From Pecten maximus (taxonomy: Eukaryota), in NCBI RefSeq assembly GCF_902652985.1, contig NC_047021.1:24986001-25050000 (forward strand): a stretch of 64,000 nt of DNA, in the 5' to 3' direction. Below are positions 36,001-39,000 of this stretch, one piece after another. Position 1 is the first letter of the stretch. Each line of letters opens with the position of its first letter. Made by a program: the position numbers.

Positions 36001-39000
36001 TGATAACACGTTTGCAAAGAAAGAAAGACAATGTATATTAGCATTTATGAGCATTCAACGCTGTATCACAAGACTACATCAAACTGAAAATCCAAATATT
36101 TGATATACAAATGTATATCTGCCTCAGTTATTCTTAAATTTGTCACAGTTAGGTGTTCACCATTTACCTGACAGTAGATCAGAACTCACTAGAATTGTTA
36201 GTCATCACACTAGGTAATAGGAGGCTGTTATGAAAAGAAAACTATTTGACGCAACCAGTTGCTCTGGTAGAAAACGAACTCATCTAACCCGTCCGGAAAA
36301 TTGTCTTATTATATGGCTCTTATTTTTCCTGCAAGCAACTTGGTCAAAACAAATCGAAAGGTTTATAACATATTACTACGAGTCACAAAGCCCTACATAA
36401 TCCTTGCACATGAGGTAAATATAACCGCCCGAATCCCCGTCAGGCGCATAACAGATGTATAGTACAATCCAATATAATATTGTTATCATTAAATACACAT
36501 GTTTACGTTTATCACAAATGTCATACAATAAAAGAGTTATTGACCAATAACAATGTAATTATGTCCATTGCTTAATCAACCAACATTATTTGATCAATCC
36601 TCAAAAGTGATATTTTTCTCAGTTAATATCACCTTCTCAGGTTAATAAGTCATCATATTCATCTTAAAACAGGTCAATAATTGTATACCTATTTTTTACT
36701 ACTTGATACAAACTCAACTGATATATCACATGATCCACGTTGCCATTTCGATACTGGAAACATTTTAGATATTAACGATACCTGAATTAAGCTTTAGTGA
36801 GATGTCATTGCCTCTGTGCAGGAAAGCTATTGACAGGTGGTCTTTTCCGAAATATTTATAGTCATAATGGAGGTGATTATCTGTAACCCTCTGTCAATCT
36901 CCCTAAAGACAACCATAGATCTGAAAAAGAATAATAAAAATGTATAGATCGGTCCTCATGCATTATTAAAGTATAAGTCATTTCCCATTTATTTATTTAT
37001 TTATTTATTTATTTATTTTTGGTAGAGGTGAGGTTATATATACTCGATAAAGATATCACGTATAAAGTATTCCCCTGCAGAACACATTAACCTGTAAGAA
37101 AAAAAAGATTATATACACTGTATTTGGTATTCAATAAACCATGACGTCAATATTATCTGGCTTTATAAGCTTCCTAAAACCAAATGCCGTGACCTGATAA
37201 GCTAGGTGGGTTGCTTTTAACTTAGCTTTCCAACGGGGACTTTAGGCTTAGCCACATTCATTTTCAACGTGGATATTTGGATTTCACCATTGATAACGAT
37301 TCAACAAATTTAAAGGGGGTAGAGCAATGTCGATGTTAATAGATGGTCATATAGCCATATTATCTAGATCTTTTTGTGCACCAAAGTTTACAATTAATCG
37401 TTCTTAAATACGTTATCATGCTACTTGGTAAGTTTCTGCCGTCCCAGAAGAGGTTCCCCTTATATAAACAACGCACGACAAGACAGGGCAATTCGAATGT
37501 TGGATCGCTGTAGAGACCCCACCTTAGCCATCTTTGGTAGACCAGTGCTTAAACGGACAGGAATGGCTTTGTGTCCAGTTGAGCGTTTCACTGATGCATG
37601 CCTTGTTGAAAGCGATAGATTTGTTGGGCCTACTGTAATGGTTTGGGGAGGCGTTTCTTATGGAGTAAAATACCCCTTAGTGGTCCTGAACTAATACCGC
37701 CATGCTGTTAGATACAGAGACCAGACGCTACATTTCCTCCCACCTCTAAGACGTCTTAACCTCACTTATCATCAAGACAATGCTCGATCACAAGTTGCCA
37801 GATTCTACCATGACATACAGCAAACAATATGCAGCCTCTAAAATAACCTCCCTATAGTCCCGACATGTCTCTCGTTGAGCATCATTGAGCTTGATAAGCG
37901 TGCAAGAAGTACTCACACCAAGTAATGAATTATAATTAACAAAAACTAAACAAAAAACAAAAACAAAATGATTAAACCAACAAACGGCTGAACAATTTCT
38001 GCATATGCATATCGCAAATTCGGCAGTTCAAACATTTATCGTTAGTGTTTGCACAGAAACTAATATTTAGGTCAGCGTACTATTTAGTTACATAGTTTTA
38101 TTTGCAAATTTGACCTTGTCAGATACACAGTAAACAATATTTGATTTGTTAACGACATATTGTGACAAGGTACAACGGTACATTTATACATTTTAACACA
38201 CCTGCCCGATGACAGAGCGAAGTAATGACATAGTTCGGCGAATCTCAAAGATGATTTTTAAGAAGTATTCCTGCTCATTAGTTTTTATATCTAGTGTCGA
38301 GGCACCAGTAAGAATCGTGTGGACTATACACGTTCTTTTAATGATGAACTATATATTCGTCTTTTAGCATACTGGTATGAATAACAATCAAATGTGCTGT
38401 AACAGCATGACAATGACTCCAATAACCCTAGGGTCTGTGTCAAATGTATTCAAACAACTTCCTCCTTACCAATAATCCCTTGACCAATGTAAATGTCCTT
38501 CTCTAGATAATGAGAAAGCCCATTGTTATCTTTGGACGTTAAGAAACCTCTAGAAACCTTACAGGAGACCTCGCGACACAACTGTGTAAAGTAAAACACC
38601 TGGTGTAAGGGTATTAACAGTTAAAATGTGAATGATCTTAGCCTTATAAGTTTTAGATACATGCAGCTTAACATACACAAGTATTATACAGTAATTTGAA
38701 ATGTTAAAATCGTCCGAGAGAGAGCAATACTGTGAATAGCTATGATAATCAAAGTGACAAGGCCACTTGATAGGCGGATTAAAATAAAGTAACATAAACG
38801 CAGTACATCATATAAAATGACAGGAAATCGGAACAAAATTTTATTTTCAAGGGACCAACCAACCAATTGTTTTTCCATGGACTTTAGTGTTAACGTTTAA
38901 GTATTTCAATCAAATTCTTGAATTCAATATGACAATTATGGTTTGTAACAAAAGTTTAGGGTCTCATATAACACCTAATAAAAAAAAAGTTGGGTCCTTC

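What the first reader, a model, noticed from the sequence alone, without database searches (positions are those of the whole stretch)
36700..37920. Orphan, still-open duplicate of the SLC46-A last exon positioned to serve as an alternative C-terminus for SLC46-B
Seen: 36700-37920 is a diverged copy of about 29640-31050 (3'UTR start, last exon, intron piece and the same Tc1 remnant), but no matching exons 1-3 lie upstream. The exon keeps a strong acceptor and an open 30-codon frame. SLC46-B exon 3 ends in phase 2 (AT|), exactly compatible, 7.2 kb upstream on the same strand. Inference: either the relic of a lost third paralogue, or an alternative terminal exon swapping B's long acidic tail for an A-type tail. 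The shared Tc1 remnant dates the duplication after that insertion.
Basis: partly seen in the sequence, partly recalled or inferred. Interest (0 to 1): 0.65.

Follow-up and report, generated by a model that had tools for sequence, protein, structure and literature searches.

The report
Decaying duplicate of a transporter's last exon
A scallop transporter gene left a worn 1.3-kb copy of its own tail end just upstream of itself; the copy looks like an ordinary gene fragment drifting without constraint, and nothing here shows that the neighbouring gene uses it.

Summary
The window is Pecten maximus. 36644-37937 is a collinear, same-strand, diverged copy of 29576-31053 (blastn E 1e-21 to 5e-7). It holds the start of the 3'UTR, the last exon and part of the last intron of SLC46-like gene A, with a Tc1-like transposase remnant. 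The acceptor, the 30-codon frame and the phase match with gene B exon 3 are all real. No other SLC46 exon relic lies between the copy and B.

The "alternative C-terminus for B" reading gains no support:
- A exon 3 ends in the same phase, so the phase match is inherited from paralogy.
- An open frame is expected by chance (P 0.41-0.68).
- dN/dS against A is 1.46.
- The copy changed 6 of 15 positions invariant in four A orthologues, and carries 9 own residues against 1 in A (p=0.02).
- No protein with this tail was found in the 5.8-billion-cluster set.
- All 6 B-type scallop proteins carry the long B tail.

One small novelty: the copy keeps the ancestral 30-codon frame, whereas A was shortened by a 2-nt deletion. 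Transcript data were not available.

The parts
36644..37937 (-). Duplicate block C: diverged copy of the 3' end of gene A (start of 3'UTR, last exon, about 1 kb of the last intron)
   Evidence: Collinear blastn matches to 29576-31053. Identity per segment is 64-77% in the alignable parts.
36827..36920 (-). Orphan last-exon copy: one base completing a split codon, 30 codons, then TAG
   Evidence: Translation and coordinates. 50% amino-acid identity to the A tail by tblastn, E 0.016.
36921..36940 (-). Intact acceptor: AG preceded by a pyrimidine-rich tract (16 of 18)
37289..37937 (+). Tc1-like transposase remnant inside block C, antisense to the SLC46 genes, broken by stops and frameshifts
   Evidence: Relatives of the 98-aa frame 37398-37694 carry DDE_3 / HTH_Tnp_Tc3_2. 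tblastn hits at 37407-37882.
36104..36149 (-). Possible further remnant of A's 3'UTR (matches 29195-29240), collinear with the block
   Evidence: 80% of 46 nt, E 9e-6 in a 7.6 x 8.1 kb comparison. The sequence between it and the block is not alignable.
29576..31053 (-). Source block in gene A: start of 3'UTR, last exon, 1.2 kb of the 1.8-kb last intron
29750..29822 (-). Gene A last exon coding part (23 codons plus TGA), shortened relative to orthologues and to copy C by a 2-nt gap at codon 24
30252..31053 (+). Tc1-like transposase remnant in A's last intron
   Evidence: tblastn hits at 30608-31019. Aligns with the remnant in C.
29750..34884 (-). Gene A coding span (SLC46/PCFT-like, 482 aa). 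Coding exons 34884-33750, 33014-32931, 31756-31600, 29822-29750.
   Evidence: Big exon 100% identical to database protein P0013. Exon limits read; the lengths sum to 1449 nt. MFS_1 match.
43480..46063 (-). Gene B coding span (SLC46/PCFT-like, 538 aa). Coding exons 46063-44875, 44633-44550, 44285-44129, 43666-43480.
   Evidence: Big exon 100% identical to database protein P0001. Exon limits read; the lengths sum to 1617 nt. MFS_1 match.
37968..40355 (.). Inverted-repeat element (arms 37968-38488 and 39832-40355) starting about 30 nt above the upper edge of block C; a possible agent or marker of the break
   Evidence: 72% identity over 536 columns, E 5e-70. Cores 88% and 81% complementary.

Best explanation
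The region is a non-processed pseudogene fragment. It is the worn remnant of a duplication of the 3' end of SLC46-like gene A of Pecten maximus. It now lies 1.9 kb upstream of A's start codon, between genes B and A.

Most likely history (inferred): a tandem duplication of a unit of about 6.9-7.1 kb holding the whole A gene put a second copy upstream of A. A later deletion of 5 kb or more, with its break inside the Tc1-like remnant and next to an inverted-repeat element, removed exons 1-3 and the promoter. Only the 3' piece was left. A primary partial insertion of 1.3-1.9 kb is nearly as likely.

Since then the fragment has drifted without the constraint that holds A-type tails. By chance it kept its acceptor and the ancestral 30-codon frame. 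Shown: the duplication, the absence of the other exons, the fast and unconstrained protein-level change, and the ancestral frame. Inferred: the order of events and the lack of use.
For: - Collinear similarity covers non-coding flanks, the exon and a transposon remnant. It is therefore a DNA-level duplicate and not a retrocopy.
- No relic of exons 1-3 lies between 36921 and 43480.
- Nei-Gojobori comparison with A's exon over 23 codons gives 13.5 non-synonymous and 2.5 synonymous differences, dN/dS 1.46.
- Against three outgroup orthologues, C has 10 of 23 residues seen in none of them; A has 2 of 23. One of these is shared by A and C. That leaves 9 against 1, binomial p=0.021.
- 6 of the 15 tail positions invariant in all four A orthologues are changed in C, three of them inside the invariant basic motif just after the last membrane helix.
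- Jukes-Cantor distance is 0.46-0.47 in the immediate flanks and 0.29 in the exon. That is what half the flank value (one neutral lineage) plus a small constrained contribution from A would give.
- A frame of this length stays open in 41-68% of simulations at 10-25% substitution. 7 of 21 acceptor-like sites on this strand are followed by 30 open codons.
- No protein with this tail was found: 7 candidates shared words and none scored E<=10.
- The clusters of the A and B proteins hold one member each.
- 6 of 6 B-type scallop proteins carry the long B-type tail.
Against: - No transcript data could be consulted, so use of the acceptor is untested.
- The exon is somewhat better kept than its immediate flanks (76% against 66%, Fisher p=0.08), with 2 gap columns in the exon against 29 in those flanks.
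- The acceptor tract is at least as pyrimidine-rich as those of the working exons.
- The frame ends at exactly the ancestral stop.
- The samples are tiny (23-30 codons), so dN/dS and the relative-rate count have little power. A fast-changing tail could also mean a new function.
- The protein search is weak negative evidence. It needs shared 5-residue words, and predicted protein sets rarely hold minor isoforms.
Confidence: 0.8

Rival explanations
1. Alternative terminal exon of gene B. Some B transcripts skip B's own last exon and polyadenylation site, and splice 44129 to 36920. This replaces the 62-residue acidic tail with a 31-residue A-type tail.
For: Same strand, downstream position and matching phase, with an intact AG and a strong pyrimidine tract. 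The frame is open for 30 codons. Its first residues are hydrophobic, as is needed to finish the last membrane helix. Canonical polyadenylation hexamers exist downstream at 35893, 35800 and 35717.
Against: - The phase match is inherited, since A exon 3 ends the same way.
- No constraint shows on the coding sequence, and the motif invariant in A-type tails is lost.
- No protein with this tail was found, and the B protein cluster has one member.
- B's long tail is present in 6 of 6 B-type scallop proteins, so the canonical end is the conserved one.
- The nearest canonical hexamer is 936 nt past the stop and outside the demonstrably duplicated part.
- Such a transcript would have to read through B's own terminal exon and 3'UTR, then remove a 7.2-kb intron, where B's own last intron is 462 nt.
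Confidence: 0.07
2. The exon copy is used by another transcript: as an internal or untranslated exon of gene A, if A starts further upstream, or in a B-A read-through or non-coding RNA.
For: It lies only 1.9 kb upstream of A's start codon on A's strand. Donor-like sites follow the acceptor at 36783, 36690 and 36634.
Against: There is no evidence of any transcript. A's 5'UTR structure is unknown here. The donor-like sites are weak consensus matches of a kind common in AT-rich DNA.
Confidence: 0.05
3. There was no segmental duplication. The similarity comes from two independent insertions of one transposon family plus chance resemblance around the exon.
For: The two best-aligned parts, the exon region and the transposon, are separated by about 300 nt that do not align. 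The transposon junctions cannot be compared.
Against: The exon region alone, which is not transposon sequence, matches at E 1e-21 and includes UTR and intron flanks. It encodes an A-type tail with the ancestral length. The order, strand and spacing of all four blocks are the same in both places. The transposase relatives hit nowhere else in the window.
Confidence: 0.02

Closest known systems
Non-processed (duplicated) pseudogene fragment / relic exon left by tandem gene duplication and partial deletion
   Same: A DNA-level copy with intron and UTR flanks. The rest of the gene is missing. Protein-level change is at the neutral rate. It lies next to the parent gene in a tandem family cluster.
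   Different: It carries no disabling mutation of its own: the acceptor, frame and stop are intact. It also preserves an older state of the exon than the working gene does.
Alternative last exons that arose by exon duplication
   Same: A duplicated terminal exon lies downstream of a paralogue's penultimate exon, in the same phase, with an intact acceptor.
   Different: There is no transcript or protein evidence, no sequence constraint and no nearby polyadenylation hexamer. The upstream gene's own tail is the one conserved across scallops.
SLC46 family of major-facilitator transporters (SLC46A1/PCFT, SLC46A2, SLC46A3; functions recalled, not tested here)
   Same: Genes A and B match Pfam MFS_1. 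Their database proteins are named proton-coupled folate transporter-like or SLC46 member 3-like.
   Different: The fragment encodes only the last few residues of the final membrane helix plus a short tail. It is not a transporter by itself.

Membership tests
Non-processed pseudogene fragment | Similarity to the parent gene extends into intron and UTR (DNA-level copy) | tested here: met
Non-processed pseudogene fragment | Cannot encode the parent protein (remaining exons absent) | tested here: met
   tblastn at E up to 10 finds no exon 1-3 relic between 36921 and 43480
Non-processed pseudogene fragment | Evolves without purifying selection | tested here: met
   dN/dS 1.46 over 23 codons. 9 own residues against 1 in A, p=0.021. 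6 of 15 invariant positions changed. Low power.
Non-processed pseudogene fragment | Not expressed or spliced into a functional mRNA | not testable with these tools
   No transcript data. The only indirect result is that no protein with this tail was found.
Processed pseudogene (retrocopy) | Lacks introns; poly(A) remnant at its end | tested here: not met
   The copy carries the acceptor and about 1 kb of intron with its transposon remnant
Alternative last exon of gene B | Usable acceptor in the phase of the upstream donor | tested here: met
   The phase is shared with A exon 3, so it is inherited.
Alternative last exon of gene B | Own polyadenylation signal shortly after the stop | tested here: inconclusive
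   The first AATAAA/ATTAAA lies 936 nt downstream. Gene A's first one is 722 nt and B's 796 nt downstream, so long UTRs are usual here.
Alternative last exon of gene B | Splice junction seen in transcripts or an annotated isoform | tested here: not met
   No protein with the tail was found. The B protein cluster has one member. RNA itself is not testable here.
Alternative last exon of gene B | Coding sequence under constraint or conserved in relatives | tested here: not met
   0 of 6 B-type scallop proteins carry an A-type tail.
Tc1/mariner-superfamily transposon remnant | Transposase with DDE_3 catalytic domain and Tc3-type HTH | tested here: inconclusive
   Direct Pfam and PDB searches on the remnant's frames were negative. 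7 of 10 scanned relatives carry DDE_3 and/or HTH_Tnp_Tc3_2, and they hit both remnants.
Tc1/mariner-superfamily transposon remnant | Terminal inverted repeats and TA target duplication | not tested
   The ends of the remnants are not recognisable
SLC46 / major facilitator superfamily (genes A and B) | MFS fold signature | tested here: met
   MFS_1 E 4e-12 for A and 8e-15 for B, above the curated cut-off
SLC46 / major facilitator superfamily (genes A and B) | Folate, muropeptide or cyclic-dinucleotide transport | not testable with these tools
   The names come from database annotation only

The most novel reading that the evidence does not exclude
The fragment is a live alternative last exon. 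A minority of B transcripts, or B-A read-through transcripts, splice into 36920. That would give a B-type transporter whose long acidic tail is replaced by a short A-type tail. The acidic tail ends in a motif that I recall as resembling a PDZ-domain ligand. The fast protein change in the copy would then be adaptation to the new partner and not decay.
Probability: 0.07. Interest if true: 0.45.

Novelty: new member of a known kind. Interest (0 to 1): 0.15.

Why it matters
It matters little beyond annotation. The fragment should not be modelled as a coding exon of B or A without RNA support. It shows that the A/B cluster of P. maximus went through at least one further duplication, later mostly erased. 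Two other scallops keep three genes, but there the extra one is B-type. Its one instructive feature is that it acts as a fossil. With the orthologues, it shows that the working gene A lost its last seven codons through a 2-nt deletion after the duplication. If RNA data were to show splicing into 36920, it would become a tidy case of tail swapping between tandem paralogues.

Tried and rejected
- Direct family assignment of the transposon frames failed. Pfam at E up to 10 gave 0 families for 5 frames. PDB sequences gave only chance-level rows, best E 0.06.
- The ESM Atlas could not read new sequences. I went through unnamed representatives instead.
- Extending the duplicate further into A's 3'UTR by global alignment gave 38-54 matches per 100 columns, which is not convincing. 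Only one 46-nt local match supports it.
- A 17-nt stretch identical in both 3'UTR starts (29646-29662, 36715-36731) occurs nowhere else in the window. A run of that length is not clearly beyond chance in a 66%-identical alignment, so I dropped it.
- I rejected the idea that C is the original last exon of B from the old A/B split. A and B exon 1 are 32-34% identical as proteins, so non-coding flanks of that age would not align at 65-80%.
- I rejected a relic of a second B-type gene, as kept in Mizuhopecten and Ylistrum. The tail and flanks are A-type.
- Literature: 'SLC46' with 'scallop' returned 7 papers, none about this locus judging by title and abstract start in the listing. 'Proton-coupled folate transporter' with 'Pecten maximus' returned 0. 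A broader search was uninformative. I opened no paper.
Orthologous DNA, other haplotypes and further copies elsewhere in the genome therefore stayed unchecked.

Full report
**Source and setting.** The window has no N. The large coding exon at 44876-46063 (-) is 100% identical to a 538-aa database protein named proton-coupled folate transporter-like of Pecten maximus (P0001). The exon at 33751-34884 (-) is 100% identical to a 482-aa protein of the same name and species (P0013). Both exons match Pfam MFS_1 above the curated cut-off. This is scallop DNA, and nothing in it was taken for human.

**Gene models.** They were read from local tblastn of the two database proteins and from the junction sequences.

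| Gene | Coding exon 1 | Exon 2 | Exon 3 | Exon 4 | Sum |
|---|---|---|---|---|---|
| A | 34884-33750 | 33014-32931 | 31756-31600 | 29822-29750 | 1449 nt = 482 codons + stop |
| B | 46063-44875 | 44633-44550 | 44285-44129 | 43666-43480 | 1617 nt = 538 codons + stop |

Exon 2 is 84 nt and exon 3 is 157 nt in both genes. Both exons 3 end with two bases of a codon. I did not build, search or fold the joined model of B exon 3 plus the orphan exon.

blastn of 36000-38500 against the window gives four collinear, same-strand matches to the 3' end of A, with E from 1e-21 to 5e-7. A more sensitive run puts the block at 36644-37937 against 29576-31053. It adds a weak collinear 46-nt match at 36104-36149 / 29195-29240.

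Identity without gaps, per segment:

| Segment | Identity |
|---|---|
| Start of the 3'UTR | 66% |
| Coding part | 76-77% |
| 60 nt of intron next to the acceptor | 65% |
| Two transposon blocks | 75% and 64% |
| Two inner stretches | 40-45%, not alignable |

The exon copy has AG at 36921-36922 and its first base at 36920. Thirty codons follow, then TAG at 36827-36829. Its pyrimidine tract is 16 of 18, better than those of A and B at 13 of 18 each. No other SLC46-like piece lies between it and B.

**The transposon.** A scan of 1.84 billion representatives with the 98-aa frame 37398-37694 (+) gave 43 relatives at E<=0.001. Of the 10 I scanned, 7 carry DDE_3 and/or HTH_Tnp_Tc3_2, 2 carry nothing and 1 carries a papilin region. 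Nine of them, run back against the window, hit only 30608-31019 and 37407-37882, both on the + strand. This supports the label "Tc1-like". Both remnants are antisense to the SLC46 genes and cover the same catalytic part. They begin to align 430 nt (A) and 369 nt (C) from the acceptor. A single insertion before the duplication is the simplest reading, but the insertion points themselves cannot be aligned.

**Is the copy constrained?** Over the 23 codons shared with A there are 13.5 non-synonymous and 2.5 synonymous differences, giving dN/dS 1.46. I cut the tails of the A orthologues of Mizuhopecten yessoensis, Argopecten irradians and Ylistrum balloti (P0014-P0016) and compared them column by column.
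- A has 2 of 23 residues seen in none of the three outgroups, and the copy has 10 of 23.
- One of these, V at position 4, is shared by A and the copy. It marks the copy as an offshoot of the Pecten A lineage.
- Leaving it out gives 9 against 1, binomial p=0.021.
- Of the 15 positions invariant in all four A orthologues, 6 are changed in the copy. Three of them lie in the invariant basic motif that follows the last membrane helix.

The exon is a little better kept than its flanks (70 of 92 against 141 of 215, Fisher p=0.08). The Jukes-Cantor distances explain this. They are 0.46-0.47 in the flanks and 0.29 in the exon. That is about what one neutral lineage plus one constrained lineage gives.

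**Is the open frame meaningful?** It is not. Under random substitution at 10-25% per site, the 30-codon frame stays open in 41-68% of 20,000 trials. 7 of 21 acceptor-like sites on this strand are followed by 30 open codons in that phase. The phase match with B is inherited, because A exon 3 ends identically.

**A small point of interest.** The orthologue tails of Mizuhopecten and Ylistrum are 30 residues long, and the copy's is also 30. All three have the same short motif just after position 23. P. maximus A has only 23. On the coding strand, A shows a 2-nt gap relative to the copy exactly at codon 24, and this creates its TGA. Read one base further on, A's unchanged letters run six more codons to the very TAG that ends the copy. 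So the copy preserves the ancestral frame, and the working gene was shortened after the duplication. Argopecten's tail also stops after 23 residues. Whether that is the same event or an independent one cannot be told without DNA.

**Evidence on use by B.**
- A search of the 5.8-billion-cluster protein set for longer proteins carrying the copy's tail found 7 word-sharing candidates, none at E<=10. This is weak negative evidence.
- The clusters of P0001 and P0013 hold one member each.
- All 6 B-type scallop proteins retrieved carry the long B-type tail, with similar last residues in several. B's canonical end is therefore the conserved one.
- The first canonical polyadenylation hexamers after the copy's stop lie 936-1112 nt away.
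- No transcript data were available. This is the main gap.

**Most likely history (inference).** The offset between the two blocks is 6.9-7.1 kb. That is A's whole transcribed region plus about 1-1.7 kb upstream. This fits a whole-gene tandem duplication that was later cut down by a deletion of 5 kb or more. The break at 37937 lies within the transposon remnant, about 30 nt from a 2.4-kb inverted-repeat element at 37968-40355. A primary ectopic copy of 1.3-1.9 kb is nearly as likely. The flank distance of about 0.46 substitutions per site says the event is old. I give no date, because I have no rate for scallops.

**Comparison with known kinds.** The fragment meets the tested criteria of a non-processed pseudogene fragment. 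It fails those of a retrocopy. For an alternative last exon it meets only the structural criteria, and fails the evidential ones. It is an ordinary feature of a tandem gene family.

**Literature.** Searches for 'SLC46' with 'scallop' (7 papers, listing only, none on this locus) and for 'proton-coupled folate transporter' with 'Pecten maximus' (0 papers) found nothing in print on it. One search was uninformative. I opened no paper, and supplements were closed and not needed. Statements about SLC46 substrates, PDZ-ligand-like endings and Tc1 motifs are recalled and not tested.

**Verdict.** Interest is low.

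Noticed in passing
window 42719-43505: A 50-nt minisatellite (15.7 copies, 92% matches) begins inside the last codons and stop codon of gene B (stop at 43480-43482). It fills B's 3'UTR down to just before the first ATTAAA at 42686. The conserved C-terminal residues of B are thus part of the repeat unit.
   Followed up: partly
window 37968-40355: An inverted-repeat element with arms 37968-38488 and 39832-40355: 72% identity over 536 columns, E 5e-70; cores 88% and 81% complementary. 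The two inner reading frames scanned had no Pfam match. It starts about 30 nt from the upper break of the duplicate block.
   Followed up: partly
window 29750-29760 versus 36827-36852: Working gene A lost its last seven codons through a 2-nt deletion that created a TGA. The orphan copy and two scallop orthologues keep the 30-codon tail. Argopecten's tail also ends after 23 residues.
   Followed up: yes
(proteins P0002, P0004, P0005, P0006, P0014, P0016): Mizuhopecten yessoensis and Ylistrum balloti each have two B-type genes and one A-type gene on one contig. This P. maximus window has one B and one A, with no further SLC46 relic up to 64000.
   Followed up: partly
window 1-2888, 5020-6984, 8788-18493, 20619-21276, 47690-48680, 57722-58565, 60644-61172: Large tandem arrays with periods of 18 to 50 nt. 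The largest is 9.7 kb of a 23/45-nt unit. With the array at 42719-43505 they cover about 18.4 kb of the 64-kb window.
   Followed up: no
window 22192-23034 (-): A long open exon with a Sushi domain and a C-type lectin domain, from a neighbouring gene on the same strand.
   Followed up: no
window 25387-27435 (+): A run of open frames, one with a reverse-transcriptase match (RVT_1 at 25865-26197, E 5e-8). Probably a non-LTR retrotransposon remnant.
   Followed up: no
window 29646-29662 and 36715-36731: A 17-nt stretch is identical in the two 3'UTR starts and found nowhere else in the window. It may be a conserved UTR site or chance.
   Followed up: partly
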